Translations under genes and position numbers: made by a program | Part shown: positions 13,204 through 23,167 of the stretch, in pieces | Layout of the letters: every line of letters starts with the position of its first letter | Numbering within the stretch: the stretch's first letter is position 1 | The notes under the pieces: generated by a model | Told to the model about the DNA's origin: nothing | Database searches by the model: none | What the model saw: the letters and a program-made list of their open reading frames with translations, nothing else | From: Maribacter sp. | GTDB lineage: Bacteria; Bacteroidota; Bacteroidia; Flavobacteriales; Flavobacteriaceae | Assembly (NCBI GenBank): GCA_024228355.1 | Contig: JAAETN010000394.1 | Span: 15,081 to 79,080, forward strand | DNA: 64,000 nucleotides | Direction of reading: 5' to 3'

Positions 13204-13803
13204 TTAGTTGAAGAAATATCCAACGGAAATCTGTATTGCCGAAGTACGATTATTACCAACAAAAAATTCCTTAAAATCGCTGCTACTATAAATTTCGGAA
13301 AGACCCAGATTATATCGTACTGCAAAATTTAAGCCGCTCTCCAATTCGTAACCAATACCAAAATTGACGCCAATATCTGTTCCTGAAATATCTTCTTTAA
13401 CATCCAATGTCCCAGAATTTGAGTCAGACTCCCATACATCCTTGGCAGATAATAAAAATCCCACTTGCGGCCCAGCCTCAAGGCTTAACCCATCCGCAAC
13501 CATAAATTTAGCCATTAACGGAACATTTAAATAATCAAATTTATATTTACCTTCAAAATCACCTCTATCATATTTATACCCTTGGAGAGAATACAATAAT
13601 TCTGGTTGAAATGAAAGCTTGTCTGTTAATGAAATTTTTGCGACCCCTCCAAGATGGAAAGCTGTTCTTGCCTTTTGACCCGGGGCATCTCCAGAAACAT
13701 TGGTAATATTCACACCTGCTTTAGCTCCAAATTTTACTTCTTGGGCATTGTTTGCTGTCAATCCAAACAAGGCAATCGTTACAAATAATAATAACTTTTT
13801 CAT
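13204..13803 (-). CDS. Outer-membrane beta-barrel protein (porin family, OMP_b-brl_2-like), copy 1
   Basis: Signal peptide; FGAKAGVN, FQPELLYSLQG, YLNVPLM and GPQVGFLLSAK motifs; C-terminal YFFN. Confidence 0.88.
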   Translation of the reverse strand: MKKLLLFVTIALFGLTANNAQEVKFGAKAGVNITNVSGDAPGQKARTAFHLGGVAKISLTDKLSFQPELLYSLQGYKYDRGDFEGKYKFDYLNVPLMAKFMVADGLSLEAGPQVGFLLSAKDVWESDSNSGTLDVKEDISGTDIGVNFGIGYELESGLNFAVRYNLGLSEIYSSSDFKEFFVGNNRTSAIQISVGYFFN

Positions 13804-14075
13804 GATTAATAGGTTTTAATATTGATTAATAAAAACTAAATCTTCTTTTTCAAATAATAAACTTGGTTTTAAGAATTTGGCCAATGTTAACTTAAAGGGG
13901 AGCTTTTTATCATACGATCTTTATTATCGTCGGTATTGCAGATACAAAGTATCGGATTATCTGGTTTCCGTGACCTTAAACTTTATATTTTACTTATATC
14001 GGGGAATTGGATTTGCACAAGCCAATTCTGGGATTATTTCAATTGCTTTAGTGTAATTTGGTTTAATCAACAAGC

Positions 14076-14144
14076 CAAAACTATTGCAGTGTTAGTGAAA
14101 TAACTAACAGCTAGGTTCCAGATGTTGACAGGATAATTCCAGAT
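14076..14144 (-). promoter_or_regulatory. Promoter of beta-barrel gene 1: TAGTTTTG -7 box with upstream ATCTGGAA direct repeats
   Basis: Minus strand reads ATCTGGAAT (14144-14136), ATCTGGAAC (14123-14115, 21-bp period), then 31 nt, then TAGTTTTG (14083-14076); the same architecture precedes copy 2. Confidence 0.65.
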
Positions 14145-14303
14145 ACACATTTGTCTGTAGAAGTACTGCTAGTTAGTCAGAATGCTCCAAAATTCTGTTC
14201 TCAAACCTAAATTTCCCGGATTATTAAGTTAATATGACATGAGGTTTGTTTCTGTCATAAAATCCTTAAACTATTGGAAGTAATTGGTAAGGTGACAGGA
14301 AGC

Positions 14304-17240
14304 TTAATAAGAAGAAGGTGCCACACCGTACAACTCCTTGAAACATTTGGCAAAATAGGAAAGGTTGTTAAACCCAACTCTATACGCTATCTGTGTAACG
14401 TTATCTGCTTTTTGGGATAACAATTGAGCGGCCCTCTTTAACCTAAAATTACGTAGTAATTCCCCTGGAGCTTCATTTGTCAAGGCTTTCAGTTTTCGGT
14501 GTAACTGGGTTTTGCTCATGGCCAAGGTCTCTTGCATTTGTGTTACACCAAAATCAGAATCAGAAAATTCAGCTTCCAACAATGCCAATACCTGCTCCAA
14601 GAATTTTGTATCAGTTGAGGTAACCGTGATTTTCCTTGGGTTTACCAGAATTTCTTTATTGGTAAATAATTCTCTCAGTTTTTGCCTTTGTTCAATAAGA
14701 TTTTTGGTGCGTACCAAAAGCTCTTTGCCGTCAAAAGGTTTAGTAAGATAGTCATCAGCCCCGGTTTCAAGTCCTTCAATTTTGTTGTCAATTCCCGCTT
14801 TAGCTGTGAGCATAATTATGGGGACATGACTGGTATGCACATTCGTCTTTAGTTTTTTACAAAGCTCAATCCCATCCATTTTAGGCATCATTAAATCTGT
14901 AATGATAAGCTCCGGAGGGTTGGATATGGCCATTTGCAATCCAATTATACCATTAATGGCTTCCTTTATTTTGTAGAATTTTATGAGCTGCTCTTTGATA
15001 TAATGTCTCATGTCATCATTGTCTTCTATCAACAGAATACTGGCGAGAGTTCTTTTATCGGTTCCCTTAAGATCATAAGGTTTGGAAATGTCGACCTTTG
15101 GCTTGGAGGATGAAATCAACTTTTCAGTTTTTACCTGTCCGGTCTTTATTTCTTGTAAAGGTATTTGTGCCGTAAAGATTGAACCTTCATTTATTTCACT
15201 GGAAACGGTTATGGTACCGTCCATTAACTCAACCAATTCCTTGGAAATTGAAAGTCCGATTCCTGATCCTTCTTTTTCCTTTGTTGAACCACCATCTACT
15301 TGATAAAAACGATCAAAGACAAATGGAAGTTTTTCCTTTGGAATTCCTTTCCCTGAATCTGAAACCACTATTTTAAGATCATCACCGGTATATTGGGTTT
15401 CAATTGAAATAATAGAACCATTCTCACTAAACTTAAAAGCATTGCCAAGTAAATTGTACACTATTTTCTCAAATTTATCCCTATCAAAAGAGGCCCAAAG
15501 TTTAGTTTGTGGAATTTGCACTTTGTAATCTATATTCCGTTGAGCCGCATGTGAACTAAAAGAGGAGGTAGCCGCCCGTAGACATTTATAGATATCCCCT
15601 TCCGTGGGTTCTAGTTTTAAATTTCCCTCGTCAATCTTAGATAGGTCCAAAAGCTGATTTACCAATTGAAGTACTCGATTGGTATTACGTCTGATCATTC
15701 TTACATTGTCTTTACTCAAATTTTCGTCAAGATTTTGCTCCAATCTTTCGATCGGTCCTTTAATAAGTGCCAGCGGCGTTCTAAATTCGTGGGAAATATT
15801 AGCAAAAAAATTAGATTTTAATCTATCCAATTCCCTGAGTTTCTCATTGGTTCTTTGTTTAATCCTATATTGCTTATATAGTAATACTGCTAGGGTCAGC
15901 ATTACTAGCGAAAAAGCAATTATTGTGTTGCGTTCGTTTATTCGCTTGTTCAGCTGCAAAGTTTGTAGGTTTTTTTCAGATTCCAAAAGTGCAATCTCCT
16001 TGGTCTTTTGTTCGTTTTGAAACTTTGCCTCAATTTCATTAGCCAATTCTCTTTTCTCCACACTATGAAAACTGTCTCTTACTACTGAGTAGAGATTTTT
16101 ATAAATATAGGCCTGTTCATAATTACTTTCTTCTATATAGATATTTGACAATGATTCATAAACATCCAATTCCACAAGATTTAATTCAACATCTTTGGCT
16201 ACTTCCAAGGCATCAAACAAATATGCCAATGCATTATTAGTGTCCTTGAGTTTGTGGTAACTGTCCCCTATTGCTTTAAGCGAATACCCTATATTCACCG
16301 AATCCTTGATGTCCGATGAAGTAATTAATGCCGTTTGGTAAAAGCTTAATGCTTTGGAAAATTCCTTTTGTTCCCAATGTATACTCCCCATAGTGTACTG
16401 GGCGTATGCCAATCTTTTTCTGTTACCCAAACTTTGATAACTCTCTATGGCCTTTCGGTTATATTTAAGTGCCTCCTCAATATTTCCCTTATTTTTGTAA
16501 ACAACCGCAAGACTATACTCGACATATGCCTTGCCGGGCAAAAAATTGGTTTCCTTAAAAATACTATCACTCAAAATAAGATAGTCTATAGCACTCTCAT
16601 AATTTTCCAATCTTCTTTGCACCAATGCTATATTGCCCAGCGTAATACCATAATCCTTGATATTTCCGTTTTCAAGATGTTTCTTGGAAGCCTTGGTGTA
16701 AAGTTCCATCGCTTTTGTATACTCCCCAGTTTCAACATAGATATTGGCCATATTGTTGTAATAATGAACAATATCTTCTTGGTCATTTCGTATTTTGGCC
16801 AATTCAAAACTTTTTTTATGAAACTCCTTGGCCTTTTTAAAGTCTCCTTTTTTCCAATGTACATTTCCAAGACCGACCAAACCTTCAAAAATACCATCAT
16901 TGTACTGTACTTTTTTTGATAATCTTAAACCCGCCGAGTATTGGACAATAGCCGAATCATAATTAGAGCGTGAACTGAAGAAATCGCCATAAATGTTATA
17001 ACTTATTGCCTCAAAACGAACGTTTCCAATTTGTTTCGAAAGCAAAATGGCTTTAAGTACTGATTCTTTCCCCTTCCCAGGAAAATCATATTGGTATTCA
17101 GAATAAAGCTGATGAAGAATTTTAATTTTGATTGAATCTACAATAGCCTTCTTATATTCCAATTGAAGACTATCGATCTTCGCTTGCGAAAACGATAATG
17201 TATGAAGTAGCACTGCAAACGGGAAAAGTAACTTTCTCAT
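14304..17240 (-). CDS. Hybrid two-component system 1: TPR sensor, TM, HisKA/HATPase, REC and AraC HTH
   Basis: TPR-like helices, TM IIAFSLVMLTLAVLLY, H-box NISHEFRTPL, GSGIGL, REC IITDLMMPKMDG, AraC GFNNLSYFAKCFK; ATG at 17240 preferred because a TATATTG box sits at 17259-17265. Confidence 0.92.
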   Translation of the reverse strand: MRKLLFPFAVLLHTLSFSQAKIDSLQLEYKKAIVDSIKIKILHQLYSEYQYDFPGKGKESVLKAILLSKQIGNVRFEAISYNIYGDFFSSRSNYDSAIVQYSAGLRLSKKVQYNDGIFEGLVGLGNVHWKKGDFKKAKEFHKKSFELAKIRNDQEDIVHYYNNMANIYVETGEYTKAMELYTKASKKHLENGNIKDYGITLGNIALVQRRLENYESAIDYLILSDSIFKETNFLPGKAYVEYSLAVVYKNKGNIEEALKYNRKAIESYQSLGNRKRLAYAQYTMGSIHWEQKEFSKALSFYQTALITSSDIKDSVNIGYSLKAIGDSYHKLKDTNNALAYLFDALEVAKDVELNLVELDVYESLSNIYIEESNYEQAYIYKNLYSVVRDSFHSVEKRELANEIEAKFQNEQKTKEIALLESEKNLQTLQLNKRINERNTIIAFSLVMLTLAVLLYKQYRIKQRTNEKLRELDRLKSNFFANISHEFRTPLALIKGPIERLEQNLDENLSKDNVRMIRRNTNRVLQLVNQLLDLSKIDEGNLKLEPTEGDIYKCLRAATSSFSSHAAQRNIDYKVQIPQTKLWASFDRDKFEKIVYNLLGNAFKFSENGSIISIETQYTGDDLKIVVSDSGKGIPKEKLPFVFDRFYQVDGGSTKEKEGSGIGLSISKELVELMDGTITVSSEINEGSIFTAQIPLQEIKTGQVKTEKLISSSKPKVDISKPYDLKGTDKRTLASILLIEDNDDMRHYIKEQLIKFYKIKEAINGIIGLQMAISNPPELIITDLMMPKMDGIELCKKLKTNVHTSHVPIIMLTAKAGIDNKIEGLETGADDYLTKPFDGKELLVRTKNLIEQRQKLRELFTNKEILVNPRKITVTSTDTKFLEQVLALLEAEFSDSDFGVTQMQETLAMSKTQLHRKLKALTNEAPGELLRNFRLKRAAQLLSQKADNVTQIAYRVGFNNLSYFAKCFKELYGVAPSSY

Positions 17241-17434
17241 CCTTAAACATTCTTTGTACAATATACCTAATTCCCAGATATTTAAATGTAATGGATAATG
17301 ATAAACGCAAACTGATCTAAATGGCTAACAGAATAGTTCCAAATTGTAAAAAATATTATCTAAATGACAAACCTTAACAAATAATATTTACAAAATGATG
17401 TCGTTCACCGGAGAATTAATACCGTTAATTTTTT

Positions 17435-17504
17435 CACCACATATTACTTCTGGTTCACAACATATTTTAGGGTTCATTGCCCTAATGCAATATTTTTACA
17501 TTGT
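17435..17504 (+). promoter_or_regulatory. Promoter of putative sRNA 1: CACCACA-N14-CACAACA repeats plus TACATTG -7-like box
   Basis: Repeats at 17435 and 17456 (21-bp period) and TACATTGT at 17497; identical spacing in copy 2. Confidence 0.6.
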
Positions 17505-17528
17505 AATTAAGTGATAGTGTTGACCCCA

Positions 17529-17546
17529 TCCCGATAGTTATCGGGA
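17529..17546. repeat. 18-bp palindrome TCCCGATA-GT-TATCGGGA
   Basis: Perfect 8-bp arms; present in sRNA copy 1 and absent at the aligned position of copy 2. Confidence 0.75.
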
Positions 17547-17642
17547 AAAACATGAACTTAACCGAAAAAGAAATATGAGTTTCCCCAAAACCTATTCTTA
17601 ACCAAAAATCGCTAAAACCAAATTTTACAAACCTACTTAACT

Positions 17643-17674
17643 AAAAAAAGCCCTTTGAAAAAAGGGCCTTTTTT
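17643..17674. terminator. Bidirectional intrinsic terminator (sRNA 1 / beta-barrel gene 2)
   Basis: A7-GCCCTTT-GA-AAAAAGGGC-C-T6. Confidence 0.85.
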
Positions 17675-17684
17675 ATGGTTAATT

Positions 17685-18260
17685 TTAGTTAATGAAGTAT
17701 CCTACCGATATTTGAAATACCCCGTTTCTTATGGTATCTGAATCATTTGGAATATCATTGATATCGAATCCAAAATAATACCTCGCACCAATGTTGACCC
17801 CATTTCCTAATTTATATCCCAAACCTAGAACCAAGCCCAAATCGGTGGACTTCGTAATATCCTTTAAATCATCCGTTTGACCATCAACGTCAGCTTTGGC
17901 TGATAATAGAAGACCCACCTGAGGCCCAGCTTCTATACTTAGTTCATCAGTTGCATGGAATTTACCCAAAATGGGTATACTCAAATAATCCAACTTAACC
18001 ACCTCATCGTCATCAACATCAGACTTTGCCCCTTGTGCAGAATATAGCAATTCTGGCTGCACCGAAAAAGCATCCGAAATCGGGATTTCTGCCATGCCCC
18101 CTAGATGAAAGGAAGTTCTTGTTTTACCATTATTAAAATCTCCCCCAAGTGTTGCGAGATTAAGACCTGCTTTAGCACCGACTTTTATATCCTGTGCATT
18201 AATAATCATCAACCCAGTGATTGTAATAACAATCGATACAAATAATTTTTTCATAATCAT
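17685..18260 (-). CDS. Outer-membrane beta-barrel protein, copy 2
   Basis: Paralog of 13204-13803 (VGAKAGLN, VQPELLYSAQG, GPQVGLLLSAK, C-terminal YFIN); ATG at 18260 or 18254 preferred over the ORF-track start at 18311. Confidence 0.88.
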   Translation of the reverse strand: MIMKKLFVSIVITITGLMIINAQDIKVGAKAGLNLATLGGDFNNGKTRTSFHLGGMAEIPISDAFSVQPELLYSAQGAKSDVDDDEVVKLDYLSIPILGKFHATDELSIEAGPQVGLLLSAKADVDGQTDDLKDITKSTDLGLVLGLGYKLGNGVNIGARYYFGFDINDIPNDSDTIRNGVFQISVGYFIN

Positions 18261-18382
18261 AAATTTTAGTTGTTGCTCTTTTATATATGGCGGGGAACGT
18301 TTCTTAACCAAACACTACCGATCTTAATCAAACACCACCAAATAGAATATTTGTCTAAGGCGCTTATTACCGATCAACAAGT

Positions 18383-18430
18383 CAAAACTACGGTTATGAA
18401 CTCCCATGGGCTAGGAGTGTAGTCCCAGAT
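18383..18430 (-). promoter_or_regulatory. Promoter of beta-barrel gene 2: ATCTGGGAC-N31-TAGTTTTG
   Basis: Minus strand reads ATCTGGGAC (18430-18422), exactly 31 nt, then TAGTTTTG (18390-18383) followed by CTTGTTGAT as in copy 1. Confidence 0.65.
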
Positions 18431-18457
18431 TTTAGGAGAATAGTTACTTTGTTAATA

Positions 18458-18492
18458 TTAGAAGTCAGAAACAAGAAATCAGTGTCAAGAAC
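18458..18492. repeat. Degenerate 7-bp-period array
   Basis: ttagaag|tcagaaa|caagaaa|tcagtgt|caagaac. Confidence 0.5.
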
Positions 18493-18713
18493 ATAGTTTG
18501 TGCCCAATGAATGATAACAGGTAAGCATTGGATTATGAATGGAAAATAAAGGAAGCTGGGTGTTTTAAGGAGAAGGTATAAAAGTTCAATTTGGAAATTA
18601 ATCAATTTGAAAATTTGCAATTGATTTACTTAATCAATGCAGCTAAGAGCGATAGGTTGCCTGTTTGGGATTCTTCGGAAAGAGCTTGAAAGAAAAACTT
18701 TTGGGCTTGGTGC

Positions 18714-21527
18714 TTAATAGGAAGAGGGTACTGTACCATAGAGTTCCTTGAAGCATTTTGTAAAATAGGAAAGGTCGTTAAACCCCACTTTATAAGCAAT
18801 TTGGGTAACACTATCTGCCTTATGGGATAATAGTTGAGCTGCTCTTTTTAATCGAAAGTTACGCAATAGTTCACCAGGGGCTTCATTGGTCAAGGCCTTT
18901 AGTTTTCGGTGTAGTTGTGATTTACTCATACCAAGGGCCTCCTGCATTTGAGATACGCCAAAATCTCCATACGAGGATTTATCTTCGAGCAAGGTTATTA
19001 AGCTTTCCAAGAATCTTCGGTCTACAGAGGTAACGGCCATTTTCTTTGGATCTATCTGAATCTGCATATTGGAAAATGCTTCCCTTAGCCTCTTACGCTG
19101 CTCAATAAGATTCTTTGCGCGGACCAACAGTTCATCGCCGTTAAAGGGTTTTGTTAGGTAGTCATCGGCCCCAGTTTCCAGGCCTACGATTTTATTAGCC
19201 ATTCCGGCCTTTGCGGTCAGCATAATTACAGGAATATGACTGGTGTTAACATTGGTCTTCAATTTATTACACAATTCCAATCCGTCCATATTGGGCATCA
19301 TCAGGTCCGTGATAATCAAGTCTGGCGAATCTTGTATCGCCTTCTTTAACCCATTCCGACCATTCGTGGCTTCAGTAATTTTATATAGCTGAACAAGATT
19401 CTCTTTTATAAAATGGCGCATATCATCATTGTCCTCTACCAACAATATGAGCGGTACCGTTCTTTTGTCATTTTTGATTAATTCAAAAGTATCCCGTTTA
19501 GGCAATCTATTGGCAATATCATACTCTCCAACTATTTTTTCCTGTCCGGTCCTAATTTCTTGTACAGTGAGAGAAACCGTAAAGAGGGAGCCCTTGTCCA
19601 ATTTACTGGAGACAGTTATAGTGCCATCCATAAGCGTTACCAAATCCTTGGTAAGTGACAGACCAATACCAGATCCTTCTTTTTCACGAGTAGAACCGCC
19701 ATCTACCTGATAAAAACGATCAAAAACGAACGGTAGTTCTTCTTTTGGAATGCCTTTCCCAGAATCTGACACTTGCATTTGAAGCTCCTGTCCTTGGCAC
19801 ATTGCTTTGAATGATATGACCGCACCATCTTCGCTGAACTTAAATGCATTACTGAGAAGGTTATATACTACTTTTTCTAGTTTGTCTCGATCAAAGGAAG
19901 CCCAAAGTACTACCTGAGGAATCTGTATCCGATAATCGATATTGCGTTGTGCCGCGTGGGAGTTAAAAGATGATACAGACGCGCGTAAACATTTAAATAT
20001 ATCACCCTCTGTAAGATCTAACCTTAAATTTCCCTCGTCAATCTTTGAAAGGTCTAAAAGTTGGTTTACGAGTTTGAGCACCCGAGTTGTATTTCGTCTT
20101 ATCATTTTTACGGTATCCATTCCAAGCTGTTCCCCAGGGTTTTGTTCCAATCGTTCTATTGGACCTTTGATCAATGATAGCGGGGTCCTGAATTCATGGG
20201 AAATATTGGCAAAAAAATTAGATTTTAATTGATCAAGTTCCATCAGTTTTTTGTTCGCCTTTTGCTTCACATGGTATTGGTTATATATTAGCCCACTAAG
20301 GACCAGCATTAGAACTGCAAAGGCAATAATGGCATTACGTTCATTTATTCGCTTGTTAAGATTTACCGTTTGTAACTTTTTTTCTGAGGCTAGAAGAGCC
20401 AATTCCTTGGCTTTTTGTTCGTTTTGATACCTAGCCTCCAAATCATTGGTGACAAGAAGTATCTTTTCATTATATAAACTATCGGATAATACAATGGTAG
20501 TAAGTGCACTGTTATGGGCTTTTTCAAATTGACCTAGTTTTTGGTATGCTTTTGATAAGAATCGATGAATTTCTATAGCCCCATCAAGAGTAGCCGTTGA
20601 ATCAAGATTTGCTAGTGCGTTATTTGCCATTTTTATGCTTTGCGTGTAGTCGCCTTGACCAAATACCGCCTCTGCCAGCCCATATTCTATTTCGTAGCCG
20701 AGGTTCACATCATCCACCTCATTGGCCAATTCAAAGGCTTTTCTCAAATAATTCTCGGCCGTAATATACTCCCCTAAATTATTGTAAACAATCCCCAAGC
20801 TGTTCAAAACCCTAGCCTCACCCAGCTTGTCCCGTGTTTCCTTTTTAAGTTCCAATGCCTGCTCATGATAGCGAATTGCCTTCCTAAACTCCCTAATTTC
20901 AATATATATATTTCCCAAATTGGTAAGGCAGGCAGAAATACCCGGTTTAATGTCCAGCTCTCTAACCAATGCCAAGGCAGCCTCGTAATTATCTCCAGCT
21001 TTTTTATATTGTTTTTGATTTTTATATACCCCTCCTATCGCACTATAAATTATGGCTTCCCTATTTTTATCATCGTTAGTTTTTGCAAGAGTCAATGCTT
21101 CAAAAAATAATTTAAACGCTACTTCATTTTTTGACTGCATTCTCGCAATTTTGCCGAGTTCCGTTTTAACATCAATTATCCCCGACTGGTCATCAAGTTC
21201 ATAAAAAACCATGAGGGCCGTCTCGTATTTTTCTTGGGCCTGACGGTATTCCCTCAAGTTTGTCAACATATATGCGGTATTTCGCCTTGCCTTTGCCAGC
21301 ATCAATGTCAGTCCTGCCTTTTCAGATAACTCCTCTGCATTTATAGCATAACCCATTGCTGTTTTTATATCATTCCTATAATATTCATTAACCAAATCTA
21401 GGTATACCTGAACTTTAATACTGTCCTCCTTTAATGTAGGTAGAATACGGAGTAGACTGTCTGCATTGGATTGGGAATATAAGAGGGAAACGGATAACAA
21501 CCAGAATAAAACATATTTCCATTTCAT
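18714..21527 (-). CDS. Hybrid two-component system 2: TPR sensor, TM, HK, REC and AraC HTH
   Basis: Paralog of HTCS 1; NISHEFRTPL, IITDLMMPNMDG, GFNDLSYFTKCFK; near-identical C-terminus KELYG..PSSY. Confidence 0.92.
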   Translation of the reverse strand: MKWKYVLFWLLSVSLLYSQSNADSLLRILPTLKEDSIKVQVYLDLVNEYYRNDIKTAMGYAINAEELSEKAGLTLMLAKARRNTAYMLTNLREYRQAQEKYETALMVFYELDDQSGIIDVKTELGKIARMQSKNEVAFKLFFEALTLAKTNDDKNREAIIYSAIGGVYKNQKQYKKAGDNYEAALALVRELDIKPGISACLTNLGNIYIEIREFRKAIRYHEQALELKKETRDKLGEARVLNSLGIVYNNLGEYITAENYLRKAFELANEVDDVNLGYEIEYGLAEAVFGQGDYTQSIKMANNALANLDSTATLDGAIEIHRFLSKAYQKLGQFEKAHNSALTTIVLSDSLYNEKILLVTNDLEARYQNEQKAKELALLASEKKLQTVNLNKRINERNAIIAFAVLMLVLSGLIYNQYHVKQKANKKLMELDQLKSNFFANISHEFRTPLSLIKGPIERLEQNPGEQLGMDTVKMIRRNTTRVLKLVNQLLDLSKIDEGNLRLDLTEGDIFKCLRASVSSFNSHAAQRNIDYRIQIPQVVLWASFDRDKLEKVVYNLLSNAFKFSEDGAVISFKAMCQGQELQMQVSDSGKGIPKEELPFVFDRFYQVDGGSTREKEGSGIGLSLTKDLVTLMDGTITVSSKLDKGSLFTVSLTVQEIRTGQEKIVGEYDIANRLPKRDTFELIKNDKRTVPLILLVEDNDDMRHFIKENLVQLYKITEATNGRNGLKKAIQDSPDLIITDLMMPNMDGLELCNKLKTNVNTSHIPVIMLTAKAGMANKIVGLETGADDYLTKPFNGDELLVRAKNLIEQRKRLREAFSNMQIQIDPKKMAVTSVDRRFLESLITLLEDKSSYGDFGVSQMQEALGMSKSQLHRKLKALTNEAPGELLRNFRLKRAAQLLSHKADSVTQIAYKVGFNDLSYFTKCFKELYGTVPSSY

Positions 21528-21700
21528 TTTAAAGGTATTGGCTATACAAGATACTTAATTCCTGGATAGTGCAGATAATGGTAATTGTAAGTAAGATTGC
21601 ATGAAAAAACTAGAACAATAGTCCCAAATTGTAAAATAAAAATAGCAATCACTGGCATAAAACCTGCCATTCATCGGAGAAATAATACCGTTAATTTTTT

Positions 21701-21770
21701 CACCACATTATACTCCTGGTTGACAACATATTTTAGGGCTCATTAACCTACTGCAGTATCTTTACATTGT
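21701..21770 (+). promoter_or_regulatory. Promoter of putative sRNA 2
   Basis: CACCACA at 21701, GACAACA at 21722 (21-bp period) and TACATTGT at 21763, 41 nt after the second repeat as in copy 1. Confidence 0.6.
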
Positions 21771-21771
21771 A

Positions 21772-21937
21772 ATTAAGTGATAGTGTTGGCCCCAAAGCAA
21801 CTCATGAACTTAACCGAAACAAAGTGTAAGTTTCCCAAAGCGAACACTAAACCTACAAAAAGCTACCTGAGTATTATCAGGACCAAATTTTAAAACCTAC
21901 TTAAAAAAAGCCCTTTGAAAAAAGGGGCTTTTTTTTT
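21772..21937 (+). ncRNA. Putative small RNA, copy 2
   Basis: Starts ATTAAGTGATAGTGTTG like copy 1 and ends in a nearly identical terminator; no convergent gene needs this terminator. Confidence 0.55.
21903..21937 (+). terminator. Intrinsic terminator of putative sRNA 2
   Basis: A-run GCCCTTT-GA-AAAAAGGGGC followed by T9. Confidence 0.85.
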
Positions 21938-22093
21938 ACATAATTCCCACACTCATGTTCTGGAATATCCAAAAAATTGGTAGTTCATCGATCATACTAT
22001 ACGTTTTAACGTATTTCACCACAATTCTCCCATGCTACACAACAAAAATTTAGAAGTACGAACCCTTGAATTTACATTCGCTTCGTATTTATG

Positions 22094-22215
22094 ATTAAGT
22101 GTTTTGTCCCATGGAATTATTACTGACCTACAAGCATAAAATTTTTTGACTGATTTACCCAATTTTACAAATCCTACTTAACAAAAAAAGCCCTGACTAA
22201 ACCGTCAGGGCTTTT
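22094..22215 (+). ncRNA. Putative small RNA, copy 3 (diverged, orphan)
   Basis: Upstream CACCACA (22017) and CACAACA (22038) 21-bp repeats, TACATTCG (22073), ATTAAGTG start, AATTTTACAAATCCTACTTAA 3' block and terminator. Confidence 0.45.
22183..22215. terminator. Bidirectional intrinsic terminator (sRNA 3 / DUF3078 gene)
   Basis: A7-GCCCTGAC-TAAACC-GTCAGGGC-T4. Confidence 0.88.
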
Positions 22216-22237
22216 ATTTACTACTTACTTTTTAAGC

Positions 22238-23167
22238 TTAGAAGGCATAGTTAAGTCCAAACAACCAATAGGTTTGCAGTTCGTTATCAACATTGTCGAA
22301 AGTCGCTCCTGTGACAGGAGTCGGTCCGTTCAAAGCATAATTAAGTGCTTCTTGCTTGTTGTCCCTAAGCCCAAATTCAAATCCTAGTCCAATCCCGTTC
22401 CATAACGTATAGCCCAGAGAGTTTATCCAGGTCCAATTGGATAAATTAGAAGATTTATAGCTTTGAAACATGGAAAGATTGGTTTTGAAATTTACATTTC
22501 CAATTTTTCTTGTGTAATCAGCAACGATCTTGGCCCCTAATGAAGACTCGAAAATGGCATCTTCATCACTAAATACAAAGTTGTAGTTCAGAGGATGGAT
22601 TACCACAACCAAATCAGTAATCGGTGTCCATGTGGCACCAACACCTAGGTCTAAATACCCTGGATTATTTAAGTTGCTTAACAAGGTAGTCCTATATTCC
22701 CCTAAAGCCGAAATAGCGAATTTTTCGCTGATTTTTTGACCGTAAAGCGACGTTATGGTAAATACATCCGTAGCTTCTTTAAAGCTGTCATCATCGGAAG
22801 CATCATCCTTATCATCGAACTTGATCCAAGCAAGATTTACATTTCCTGAATTTCTCCAGAAAAATTTCTCTTGTTGAAGATTAGCGAAGGCATTAACCGT
22901 GACACCAATGTTCCCGGCGCTTGAATTTGCTTCACCTTTTGAATACCAGTTGCTAAAACCAGAAAGGTTGGCGCCAATCGTTCCAAATGCCCCTTTTTTC
23001 CAGCCTGGAAGAGCATCAATTTGTGTTTGAAGGGCATCGACCCGGCCTTGAATTGCAGCAATGGAATCCTTTTTGGGTCCTTGCAATGCTTTAAGTTCAT
23101 CTGCCGTTTGCGCGTAGGTAGCTGATATAGCCATAAAAGCCACCACTGTGAATACTAGATTTCTCAT
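22238..23167 (-). CDS. DUF3078-family exported/outer-membrane protein
   Basis: Signal peptide, coiled segment, WKKGAFG and FSNWY motifs, beta-strand-rich, C-terminal Phe. Confidence 0.75.
   Translation of the reverse strand: MRNLVFTVVAFMAISATYAQTADELKALQGPKKDSIAAIQGRVDALQTQIDALPGWKKGAFGTIGANLSGFSNWYSKGEANSSAGNIGVTVNAFANLQQEKFFWRNSGNVNLAWIKFDDKDDASDDDSFKEATDVFTITSLYGQKISEKFAISALGEYRTTLLSNLNNPGYLDLGVGATWTPITDLVVVIHPLNYNFVFSDEDAIFESSLGAKIVADYTRKIGNVNFKTNLSMFQSYKSSNLSNWTWINSLGYTLWNGIGLGFEFGLRDNKQEALNYALNGPTPVTGATFDNVDNELQTYWLFGLNYAF

What the first reader, a model, noticed from the sequence alone, without database searches (positions are those of the whole stretch)
17506..22215. Unannotated three-copy small-RNA family (about 120-170 nt) with its own promoter and terminator
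Seen: units at 17506-17674, 21772-21937 and 22094-22215 each have a TACATT(G/CG) box, start with ATTAAGTG and end with A(C)C(A/C)AATTTTA(C/A)AA(A/AT)CCTACTTAA followed by an A-run GCCC hairpin and U-tract. Copies 1 and 2 also share ATGAACTTAACCGAAA and AGTTTCCC. The terminator of copy 2 has no convergent gene to serve, which argues for a real plus-strand transcript. Short ORFs are not conserved (8 aa, 29 aa and 12 aa), which favours a non-coding role. The bodies are C/A-rich with repeated CTTAAC, AACC and CCC motifs. Inference: base-pairing sRNAs with a conserved seed before the terminator, or CsrB-like multi-motif sponges for an RNA-binding protein. I cannot assign an Rfam family from the sequence alone.
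Basis: partly seen in the sequence, partly recalled or inferred. Interest (0 to 1): 0.82.

Follow-up and report, generated by a model that had tools for sequence, protein, structure and literature searches.

The report
Multicopy small-RNA family of marine Flavobacteriaceae
The three units are very probably real, separately promoted genes of an undescribed regulatory small-RNA family found in about one in seven Flavobacteriaceae genera, all driven by one conserved activator-type promoter that also drives a 35-residue protein gene; no transcript, target or regulator has yet been shown.

Summary
Three plus-strand units lie at about 17505-17674, 21771-21937 and 22086-22215. Each has a Bacteroidota-type promoter and an intrinsic terminator. 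No Rfam 15 family matches.

They belong to a large family. A covariance model finds 1-5 copies, often in tandem, in 45 of 301 Flavobacteriaceae genomes (44 of 300 genera). Named hits include Maribacter, Zobellia, Ulvibacterium, Eudoraea and Arenibacter.

The RNAs share:
- two or three hairpins whose stems covary under an invariant CCCCAAA-type loop;
- A/C-rich single strands;
- a conserved CCUACUU(A)AC box just before the terminator.

Every copy has the same upstream module: TTCATCG, then two TTCACmACA boxes 21 bp apart, next to the -33 element. The same module drives a conserved 33-35-aa protein gene. One copy of that gene lies 4 kb beyond the window.

The neighbouring TPR hybrid sensor kinase sits divergent from such an sRNA in at least 7 genera. 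It is absent from most genomes that carry the sRNAs, so it is not the general activator.

My best reading is sibling sRNAs that act in trans, most likely by base pairing through the C-rich loops and the 3' box. A protein-sponge role is not excluded.

The parts
17403..17498 (+). Promoter module of copy 1. Distal GTTCACCG (17403), boxes TTCACCACA (17433-17441) and TTCACAACA (17454-17462), -33 TTTAG (17467-17471), 19-nt spacer, -7 TATTTTTA (17491-17498).
   Evidence: Consensus of 145 modules from many genera.
17505..17674 (+). sRNA copy 1 (type A, about 170 nt). SL1 outer stem UUAAGU/ACUUAA. SL2 loop UUUCCCCAAA (17580-17589). 3' box CCTACTTAAC (17632-17641). Terminator 17650-17674.
   Evidence: R2 hit at E = 3.4e-20. 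Alignments A2 and A3. Fold.
17529..17546 (+). 18-nt palindrome TCCCGATAGTTATCGGGA inserted into the CCCCA|AA apical loop of SL1 in copy 1.
   Evidence: The genome holds 13 copies of the element against 0.08 expected.
21669..21764 (+). Promoter module of copy 2. ATTCATCG (21669), boxes at 21699-21707 and 21720-21728, -33 TTTAG (21733-21737), -7 TATCTTTA (21757-21764).
21771..21937 (+). sRNA copy 2 (type A, about 167 nt). SL1 loop CCCCAAA (21790-21796). SL2 loop UUUCCCAAA (21831-21839). Optional SL3 CCUGA...UCAGG. 3' box CCTACTTAA (21886-21894). Terminator 21910-21937.
   Evidence: R2 hit at E = 7.6e-22..
21983..22080 (+). Promoter module of copy 3. GTTCATCG (21983-21990), boxes at 22015-22023 and 22036-22044, -33 TTTAG (22049-22053), -7 TACATTCG (22073-22080).
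   Evidence: Type C units of other genomes have the same layout.
22086..22215 (+). sRNA copy 3 (type C, about 130 nt). This is the divergent last member of the array. 3' box CCTACTTAAC (22173-22182). Terminator GCCCTGAC...GTCAGGGC plus U-run (22190-22215).
   Evidence: R2 hit at E = 1.5e-6. Type C alignment members.
14304..17261 (-). Hybrid sensor kinase HK1, divergent from copy 1. Domains: signal peptide, TPR repeats, TM, HisKA, HATPase, receiver, AraC-type HTH. This is a neighbour, not the general activator.
   Evidence: Pfam. Synteny and phyletic pattern.
18714..21527 (-). Paralogous hybrid sensor kinase HK2, divergent from copy 2.
17685..18257 (-). OMP_b-brl outer-membrane beta-barrel gene downstream of HK2, convergent with copy 1. 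A paralogue lies at 13204-13803 downstream of HK1.
   Evidence: An HK-OMP pair is also present in L075 (Muriicola).

Best explanation
The three units are autonomous genes of a multicopy ('sibling') regulatory sRNA family of the Maribacter-Zobellia-Arenibacter part of the Flavobacteriaceae.

Transcription (inferred from sequence). Each copy has a canonical Bacteroidota sigma-A promoter: -33 TTTAG, a 19-nt spacer, then -7 TAnnTTTA. An upstream activator site precedes it: two 9-bp direct repeats TTCACmACA with a 12-bp spacer, the proximal one 4 bp from the -33 element, plus a distal TTCATCG element near -100. An unidentified DNA-binding activator probably switches on all copies together, along with a co-regulated 33-35-aa protein gene.

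Structure (shown by covariation). The RNAs are 130-180 nt and end at an intrinsic terminator. They fold into two or three hairpins with exposed CCCCAAA-type loops. These are separated by A/C-rich single strands and followed by an unpaired, highly conserved CCUACUU(A)AC box.

Action (inferred by analogy). The RNAs act in trans after transcription. The most likely mode is base pairing of the C-rich loops and the 3' box with G-rich or complementary sites in mRNAs. The several copies would give dosage or partly distinct target sets.

Gene context. The TPR hybrid kinase and outer-membrane-barrel operon is a recurrent, optional neighbour. It shares the divergent control region and hints at a role in the cell envelope or outer membrane. 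It is not the general activator.

The confidence of 0.6 is for the statement as a whole. That these are real genes of a conserved structured sRNA family I put at about 0.85. The base-pairing mode alone I put at about 0.45-0.5.
For: - Promoter module: 141 of 145 occurrences of the module in public genomes are followed by a terminator within 420 nt. The box and spacer lengths are fixed while the spacer sequence varies, as expected for DNA sites.
- Distribution: model R2 finds 1-5 copies in 45 of 301 genomes and 44 of 300 genera, often in tandem (arrays).
- Structure: on 110 members, 88.6% of cells are paired, against 72% in shuffles and 57% or less when partners are slid. 29 of 33 pairs show compensatory changes. 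The covariation score is 0.391 against 0.136, with 0 of 500 shuffles as high.
- Loops: 200 hairpins carry CCCCAAA-type loops, against 11.5 in shuffles and 6 on the opposite strand. They use 136 different stems.
- Conservation: CCTACTT and the loop CCCAAA are at least 90% conserved across genera.
- Non-coding: no ORF is conserved in types A and C.
- The fourth unit codes: its variable columns by codon position are 15/11/31.
- No described family fits: no Rfam hit and no match among the F. psychrophilum Rfp RNAs.
- Kinase link: the orthologue lies 190-260 nt divergent from an sRNA in at least 7 genera.
Against: - No transcript evidence of any kind.
- No target class emerged. G-rich anti-motifs are not enriched near start codons. 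Hits complementary to the 3' box form no coherent gene set.
- Bacteroidota rarely use Shine-Dalgarno sites, the usual targets of C-rich sRNA loops in other phyla.
- Several identical loops per RNA, even in terminator loops, fit a protein-binding reading as well.
- The activator is unidentified. The adjacent kinase is missing from 31 of 45 sRNA-bearing genomes. A LytTR candidate shows no phyletic match.
- The A3 alignment was fitted to the model's structure, so its pair counts lean towards that structure.
Confidence: 0.6

Rival explanations
1. Protein-sequestering (CsrB/RsmZ-like) RNAs. The repeated hairpins with identical CCCCAAA loops are binding sites for an unidentified RNA-binding protein. 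That protein also binds the same hairpin just upstream of the start codon of the 35-aa protein mRNA. The sRNAs would titrate it.
For: - There are 1-4 identical-loop hairpins per RNA, with freely varying stems.
- The motif also occurs in terminator loops and in the 5' UTR hairpin next to the start region of the type D mRNA.
- The full promoter module drives almost only these small transcripts. This resembles GacA, which controls mainly the rsm sRNA genes (my own knowledge).
- No base-pairing target class was found.
Against: - No global RNA-binding protein specific for C-rich loops is known in Bacteroidota.
- Only 5 other intergenic CCCCAAA hairpins (stem of 5 bp or more) exist in this genome, no more than the control motif gives. 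There is therefore no visible set of mRNA targets for such a protein.
- Two or three sites per RNA is few for a sponge.
- The best-conserved element, CCUACUU, is a single-copy, seed-like box.
Confidence: 0.22
2. The adjacent TPR hybrid two-component system is the activator. Its AraC-type domain binds the 21-bp-spaced repeats and drives the sRNAs, as in OxyR/OxyS- or SgrR/SgrS-type divergent pairs.
For: - It is divergent at a nearly fixed distance (190-260 nt) in at least 7 genera.
- 14 of the 17 genomes with the orthologue carry the sRNAs, against 45 of 301 overall.
- AraC-family dimers bind direct repeats 21 bp apart that abut the -35 element (my own knowledge).
- HK1 and HK2 have near-identical helix-turn-helix regions.
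Against: - 31 of 45 sRNA-bearing genomes have no orthologue, although the boxes are unchanged there.
- In five such genomes, four of them complete, the best match to the DNA-binding domain is only 37-47% identical. One is a complete Maribacter genome with a three-copy array.
- Copy 3 and the type D gene carry the boxes without a kinase neighbour.
Confidence: 0.15
3. The non-coding units are decayed duplicates of the small-protein gene (type D) with no function of their own.
For: - Same promoter, same 5' hairpin, an AAACCUAC stretch and a similar length.
- Copy 1 has a palindrome inserted in its SL1 loop.
Against: - Types A and C keep covarying stems, invariant loops and an invariant 3' box across 44 genera. 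Pseudogenes would not.
- They outnumber type D by 121 to 20.
Confidence: 0.04
4. Promoter-plus-terminator DNA repeats with no RNA function, for example transcriptional insulators or mobile intergenic repeats.
For: They are tandem and modular. Copy number varies between species.
Against: - Compensatory base changes preserve RNA helices on one strand only. The opposite strand gives 6 hairpins against 200.
- Position is syntenic next to the DUF3078 gene across genera.
- There are no terminal repeats or target-site duplications.
Confidence: 0.04

Closest known systems
LhrC1-5 of Listeria monocytogenes (Rfam LhrC)
   Same: Multicopy, partly tandem sibling sRNAs of about 110-170 nt. Each has its own regulator-dependent promoter and terminator, and several exposed C-rich motifs in loops and single strands. 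They are linked to cell-envelope signalling. (The LhrC properties are from my own knowledge.)
   Different: - Different phylum and no sequence or model match: LhrC scores 17.6 bits against a gathering score of 110.
- The loop motif is CCCCAAA, not UCCC.
- LhrC pairs with Shine-Dalgarno regions, which Bacteroidota largely lack.
- The regulator is unknown here, whereas LisRK controls LhrC.
FopS / GibS sRNAs of Bacteroides thetaiotaomicron (PMC11697453)
   Same: A multicopy paralogous sRNA family in Bacteroidota, without Hfq. It uses sigma-A-type promoters with a suspected extra regulator, and its targets include outer-membrane protein mRNAs.
   Different: - FopS RNAs are 65-70 nt, with a single-stranded 5' seed followed directly by the terminator. 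They are scattered in the genome and bind the RRM protein RbpB.
- The present RNAs are 130-180 nt with 2-3 C-loop hairpins and a 3' box. They lie in tandem arrays and occur in Flavobacteriaceae only.
- No Rfam match.
RsmX/Y/Z and CsrB/C sponge RNAs
   Same: Several paralogous sRNAs, each with a conserved upstream activating sequence. Repeated hairpins present one invariant loop motif, and the number of hairpins varies.
   Different: The motif is CCCCAAA, not GGA. There are 1-4 hairpins, not 5-22. Neither CsrA nor any other partner protein is known here.
agr P3 / RNAIII of Staphylococcus aureus
   Same: The activator site is two 9-bp direct repeats with a 12-bp spacer upstream of the promoter, the LytTR-type layout (my own knowledge). 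The output is regulatory RNA with C-rich hairpin loops plus a small hydrophobic peptide.
   Different: Here the peptide and the RNAs are separate genes. No LytTR regulator could be tied to the boxes. No quorum-sensing genes lie nearby.
Rfp sRNAs of Flavobacterium psychrophilum (PMC9723704)
   Same: The only transcriptome-based sRNA catalogue for the same bacterial family.
   Different: None of the listed Rfp sequences carries the CCCCAAA-loop plus CCUACUU signature. Rfp18 is G-rich and unrelated.

Membership tests
Any Rfam 15 family | Covariance-model score at or above the curated gathering score | tested here: not met
   There are no hits at gathering score in the whole window. At E up to 10 on 21650-22260, the best hits are STnc370 at 28.6 bits (gathering 54) and MicC at 27.6 (gathering 90). 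Both rest on the terminator.
LhrC (Rfam LhrC, CL00114) | Match to the LhrC model, including the three UCCC motifs | tested here: not met
   17.6 bits against a gathering score of 110. The loop motif here is CCCCAAA.
FopS/GibS and other Bacteroides BTnc families | Match to the Rfam models deposited for B. thetaiotaomicron sRNAs | tested here: not met
   Only BTnc231 at 20.9 bits (gathering 80.4) and BTnc060 at 18.6 bits (gathering 228.9) appear, far below threshold. No FopS or GibS hit is listed.
Bacteroidota sigma-A promoter | -33 TTTG-like and -7 TAnnTTTG-like elements about 19 nt apart | tested here: met
   The consensus of 145 modules is TTTAG, N19, TAnnTTTA. The window copies read the same way.
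Intrinsic (Rho-independent) terminator | GC-rich hairpin followed by a U-run at the 3' end | tested here: met
   Hairpins end at 17674, 21937 and 22215. Terminator helices covary, with 12 of 13 pairs showing compensatory changes.
Structured trans-acting sRNA | Helices kept by compensatory substitutions across species | tested here: met
   A3: 29 of 33 pairs have double changes, score 0.391 against 0.136 in shuffles. The caveat is that the alignment was fitted to the model. Within the genus, A2 gives 90.9% paired against 62% when slid.
Structured trans-acting sRNA | A discrete transcript is detected | not testable with these tools
CsrB/Rsm-type protein sponge | Multiple GGA-loop hairpins and a CsrA/RsmA partner | tested here: not met
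   The loops are CCCCAAA, not GGA. No partner protein is known. The analogy in layout remains open.
LytTR-regulated promoter (agr P2/P3 type) | Two 9-bp direct repeats with a 12-13-bp spacer upstream of the promoter, plus a cognate LytTR regulator | tested here: inconclusive
   The repeat layout is met. The genome has 14 LytTR proteins. None is consistently next to the arrays, and the one beside a similar repeat has a non-matching phyletic pattern.
Divergent regulator-sRNA pair (OxyR/OxyS type) with the TPR hybrid kinase as activator | The regulator is present wherever its operator and sRNA are conserved | tested here: not met
   The orthologue is absent from 31 of 45 sRNA-bearing genomes. This was confirmed at a lenient threshold in 5 genomes.

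The most novel reading that the evidence does not exclude
The promoter module may define a dedicated signalling output whose direct regulon is almost only small transcripts: several sRNAs plus one 35-aa protein, a logic like GacA/Rsm or agr. The CCCCAAA-loop hairpins would then be the recognition element of a still undiscovered global RNA-binding protein of Flavobacteriaceae. This phylum lacks Hfq, ProQ and, as a rule, CsrA. The sRNAs would titrate that protein away from mRNAs such as the small-protein mRNA. The TPR hybrid kinase and outer-membrane-barrel cassette would feed an envelope signal into the same control region.
Probability: 0.15. Interest if true: 0.85.

Novelty: new member of a known kind. 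Interest (0 to 1): 0.6.

Why it matters
Riboregulation in Bacteroidota is known almost only from gut Bacteroides. For marine Flavobacteriaceae, which are key degraders of algal polysaccharides, no sRNA family has a known function.

This family offers several handles for experiment:
- It is widespread (44 of 300 genera sampled), multicopy, and structurally well defined.
- One recognisable activator site controls all copies, and the same site drives a conserved 35-aa protein gene.
- That gives a testable regulon, a DNA bait for finding the regulator, and RNA baits for finding partners.
- It occurs in tractable organisms such as Zobellia and Maribacter.

C-rich hairpin loops are the hallmark of sRNAs that pair with Shine-Dalgarno sites in other phyla. 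Finding them in a phylum that hardly uses Shine-Dalgarno pairing raises a clear mechanistic question.

Tried and rejected
2. My first family-wide pattern search used a wrong gap (11-13 instead of 13-15). It found nothing even in the window's own genome, so it says nothing.
3. Target prediction.
   - A list of 11-mer complements was pure noise.
   - RNAduplex over all leaders timed out.
   - G-rich anti-motifs and anti-box words show no positional enrichment at start codons.
   - Genes with 8-mers complementary to the 3' box near their starts form no coherent class.
4. Pairing with neighbouring leaders (one search timed out). Only copy 1 against the OMP2 upstream region stands out (z = -3.3), through UUCUUAACCAAA/UUUGGUUAAGAA. 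That sRNA segment is not conserved in orthologues. The site lies in a 21-nt-spaced direct repeat that may be promoter DNA rather than mRNA. OMP1 lacks it. I do not count it as a target.
5. A 5'-3' closing helix (UUAAGU with the 3' ACUUAA). Changes in the 3' box (CUUUAC, CUGAAC, CUAGAC) are not compensated at the 5' end. Rejected.
6. The TPR hybrid kinase as general activator. Rejected on its phyletic pattern.
7. The membrane LytTR protein next to a TTTCACCACA repeat (C424) as activator. No phyletic match.
8. Other box-like sites in the genome lack the distal element. I did not follow them further.
9. A genome-wide search for CCCCAAA hairpins in other 5' UTRs found only 5, no more than the control motif.
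10. Pfam and NCBIfam gave nothing for the 35-aa protein.
11. Literature searches found no description of the family.
Full report
**What is in the window**

Reading 17000-22800 confirms three plus-strand units.
- Each starts at or shortly before ATTAAGTG (17506, 21772, 22094).
- Each carries (A)CCTACTTAA(C) about 10 nt before a GC-rich hairpin and T-run, ending at 17674, 21937 and 22215.
- Copies 1 and 2 are about 75% identical along their length. Copy 3 shares the 3' box, the promoter boxes and the overall layout.

All long ORFs around the units are on the minus strand:
- two paralogous hybrid sensor kinases (14304-17261 and 18714-21527), each with TPR repeats, HisKA, HATPase, a receiver and an AraC-type HTH;
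- OMP_b-brl barrel genes downstream of each kinase (13204-13803 and 17685-18257);
- a DUF3078 gene (22238-23167), followed by the suf operon.

No Rfam 15 family reaches its gathering score anywhere in the window. A permissive scan of 21650-22260 gives only weak hits that rest on the terminator.

**The similarity continues upstream and is a promoter**

The stretch 17399-17528 versus 21665-21794 is 88% identical. The flanking paralogous kinase genes are only about 75% identical.

I aligned 145 such upstream regions from many genera. The consensus is:
- TTCATCG, then about 22 nt;
- TTTTTCACaACA, then 12 nt;
- gTTCACAACA, aaAaTTTAG, then 19 nt of variable sequence;
- TAnnTTTAca, then about 6 nt, then (A)ATTAAGTG.

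TTTAG-N19-TAnnTTTA is the canonical Bacteroidota -33/-7 promoter. This rests on established knowledge, and PMC9723704 uses the same consensus. Fixed spacer lengths with variable spacer sequence are what DNA-binding sites look like, not RNA structure.

Two consequences follow:
- In copy 3, TACATTCG (22073-22080) is itself the -7 box, so that RNA should start near 22086.

The two 9-bp direct repeats lie 21 bp apart start to start. The proximal one is 4 bp from the -33 element. That is the layout of an activator site.

**The family is large**

- A DNA search of 40 relatives found tandem arrays of 2-5 units in nearly every genome of the same genus. They usually lie between an hflX-like GTPase gene and the DUF3078 gene.
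Named genera include Maribacter, Zobellia, Ulvibacterium, Eudoraea, Pricia, Arenibacter, Muriicola, Euzebyella, Pseudozobellia, Sediminicola, Robiginitalea, Cellulophaga and Psychroserpens. Contig lengths tie the window's genus to Maribacter.
- Of 145 modules in those loci, 141 are followed by a terminator within 420 nt. They split into 107 units like copies 1 and 2 (type A), 14 like copy 3 (type C) and 20 of a coding type D.
- A covariance model built from the Maribacter copies (R1) found 110 full-length members in 100 loci.
- The rebuilt model R2 found 1-5 copies in 45 of 301 Flavobacteriaceae genomes, sampled one per genus. That is 44 of 300 genera. In the window's own genome it hit exactly the three window copies.

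**Structure**

Single-sequence folds agree on the following layout:
- SL1, with outer stem UUAAGU/ACUUAA and an apical CCCCAAA(UC) loop;
- an A-rich linker;
- SL2, with a (UUU)CCCCAAA loop;
- a single strand containing AAACCUAC;
- an optional SL3;
- a single strand ACCAAAUUUUAC-AAACCUACUUAAC;
- the terminator.

Within the genus, 90.9% of cells pair, against 62% with slid partners.

On the 110-member multi-genus alignment:
- 88.6% of cells pair, against 72% in shuffles and 57% or less when slid;
- 29 of 33 pairs show compensatory double changes;
- the covariation score is 0.391 against 0.136, with 0 of 500 shuffles as high.

This alignment was fitted to the model, so it leans towards the structure.

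An alignment-free count supports it. The 141 transcripts contain 200 hairpins (stem of 4 bp or more) capped by CCCCAAA-type loops. Shuffles give 11.5 (maximum 17) and the opposite strand gives 6. These hairpins use 136 different stem sequences.

Across genera the best-conserved letters are the loop CCCAAA, the 5' TTAAG, CTTAA, and above all CCTACTT before the terminator.

**Not coding, except the fourth sibling**

The ATG of the short ORFs in copies 1 and 2 (CATGAAC) is replaced by CTTGAAC, CTAGAAC or CAAGAAC in other genera.

A fourth unit with the complete promoter module lies at G000:C394:83208-83520 on the minus strand, about 4.1 kb beyond the window end. It has:
- a 5' UTR hairpin with an ACCCCAAAUC loop;
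- AAACCUA just before the start codon;
- the ORF MEAQINQAPIEEEILVYKNDYISGIVLLTKKLFML;
- a CCUACUUAA box and a terminator.

Twenty homologues encode 33-35-aa peptides of the form M[ED]AQ[IM]N...[IV]QVYKND[FY]FSG[IV][VM][LM]LTKKLFML. Variable alignment columns by codon position are 15/11/31, the signature of a coding sequence. Pfam and NCBIfam have no family for it. Several of its terminators again carry CCCCAAA in the loop.

**The neighbouring kinase**

A note from another window, on a Tenacibaculum genome with TPR-sensor systems next to sRNAs and a 33-residue protein, prompted me to test whether the kinase adjacency is more than local.

It is more than local.
- tblastn finds full-length orthologues (48-76% identity) in at least 10 of the fetched loci.
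- Combining the coordinates, the orthologue's start codon lies 190-260 nt divergent from an sRNA 5' end in at least 7 genera. These are the window's own genome plus G076, G318, G209, G296, G214 and G330.
- With the DNA-binding domain as query, the scores are bimodal: orthologues at 61% identity or more, paralogues at 52% or less. Orthologues occur in 17 of 301 genomes, and 14 of those carry the sRNAs.

Even so, the kinase is not the general activator. 31 of 45 sRNA-bearing genomes lack it. In five such genomes, four of them complete and one a Maribacter with a three-copy array and unchanged boxes, the best match to the domain is 37-47% identical.

The hybrid kinase is therefore an optional, recurrent partner of the locus. 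It could be an extra input, a co-regulated operon or a target.

The general activator remains unknown. The 9-bp repeats with a 12-bp spacer resemble LytTR sites, and the 21-bp period resembles AraC-family sites. Both comparisons rest on my own knowledge. The genome has 14 LytTR proteins. None is syntenic with the arrays. The one that sits beside a similar repeat has the wrong phyletic pattern.

**Mechanism**

Shown:
- autonomous promoter-to-terminator units;
- conserved, covarying structure;
- invariant exposed loops and an invariant 3' box;
- co-regulation signals shared with a small-protein gene.

Inferred: action in trans after transcription.

I favour base pairing at about 0.45-0.5. All characterised Bacteroidota sRNAs that I know of pair with mRNAs (PMC7366714, PMC11697453). 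C-rich loop sRNAs elsewhere, such as LhrC, RsaE/RoxS and RNAIII, are base-pairers (my own knowledge). The single-copy CCUACUU box also looks like a seed.

The sponge alternative stands at about 0.2. It is kept alive by the repeated identical loops, by their presence next to the start region of the co-regulated mRNA and in terminator loops, and by my failure to find any target class. Against it, there are few other such hairpins in the genome and no known partner protein.

A cell-envelope role is only a guess from gene context: the kinase's TPR sensor, which follows a signal peptide and so is probably extracytoplasmic, and the OMP barrel and DUF3078 neighbours.

**Known or new**

- Nothing in Rfam 15 matches.
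- The only transcriptome catalogue for the family, F. psychrophilum Rfp1-89, has no RNA with this signature.
- Five literature searches found no description.

As a kind, namely sibling sRNAs with a dedicated regulator-dependent promoter, it is well known. As a family it appears undescribed.

**Limits**

- One genome search was wasted on a faulty pattern.

Noticed in passing
G000:C394:83208-83520 (minus strand), about 4.1 kb beyond the window end: A fourth unit with the complete promoter module encodes a conserved 35-aa protein, MEAQINQAPIEEEILVYKNDYISGIVLLTKKLFML. Its 5' UTR holds a CCCCAAAUC-loop hairpin. Twenty homologues in other genera show third-codon-position variation. There is no Pfam or NCBIfam family for it.
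   Followed up: partly
window 17529-17546, and 12 other places in the genome: The palindrome (T/C)CCCGATAGYTATCGGG(A/G) occurs 13 times in this genome against 0.08 expected. Ten copies lie outside long open frames. One copy sits inside the SL1 loop of sRNA copy 1. The same hairpin appears at other positions in 5 of 141 family members from other genomes. It behaves like a small mobile or recruited hairpin element.
   Followed up: partly
window 13204-21940: [OMP barrel - TPR hybrid kinase - sRNA] forms a tandemly duplicated three-part module, with about 75% DNA identity between the kinase genes. In the relatives whose arrays were read the sRNAs lie directly between hflX and DUF3078, with no kinase between. 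The kinase-OMP cassettes therefore interrupt the ancestral array here. Both kinases have almost identical AraC-type helix-turn-helix regions.
   Followed up: partly
window 18295-18340 (minus strand, upstream of the OMP gene 17685-18257): There are direct repeats GTGTTTGATTAAGA and GTGTTTGGTTAAGAA, 21 nt apart. One is perfectly complementary over 12 nt to UUCUUAACCAAA of sRNA copy 1. It is unclear whether this is a regulator site on DNA or an sRNA target site on the mRNA. The paralogous OMP1 upstream region lacks it.
   Followed up: partly
G000:C424:4614-5499: A 282-aa protein has N-terminal transmembrane helices and a C-terminal LytTR domain. It is followed at once by TTTCACCACA-N10-TTTCACCACA, upstream of a secreted 312-aa protein gene. 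This is a likely one-component regulator with its own operator. It has a similar box sequence but appears unrelated to the sRNA family by phyletic pattern.
   Followed up: partly
G000 contigs C382:30253, C189:7835, C326:12981, C395 (two sites): There are further TTCACnACA-N12-TTCACAACA-like pairs in intergenic regions, upstream of an ECF sigma factor gene, an LRR protein gene and very large secreted protein genes. They lack the distal TTCATCG element. They may be additional sites of the same unknown regulator, or chance matches.
   Followed up: no
terminators of family members, e.g. L045, L055, L097 and L022: Many terminator hairpins of these transcripts also carry (U)CCCCAAA(A) as their loop. 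The C-rich loop motif is therefore kept even where any loop sequence would serve for termination.
   Followed up: no
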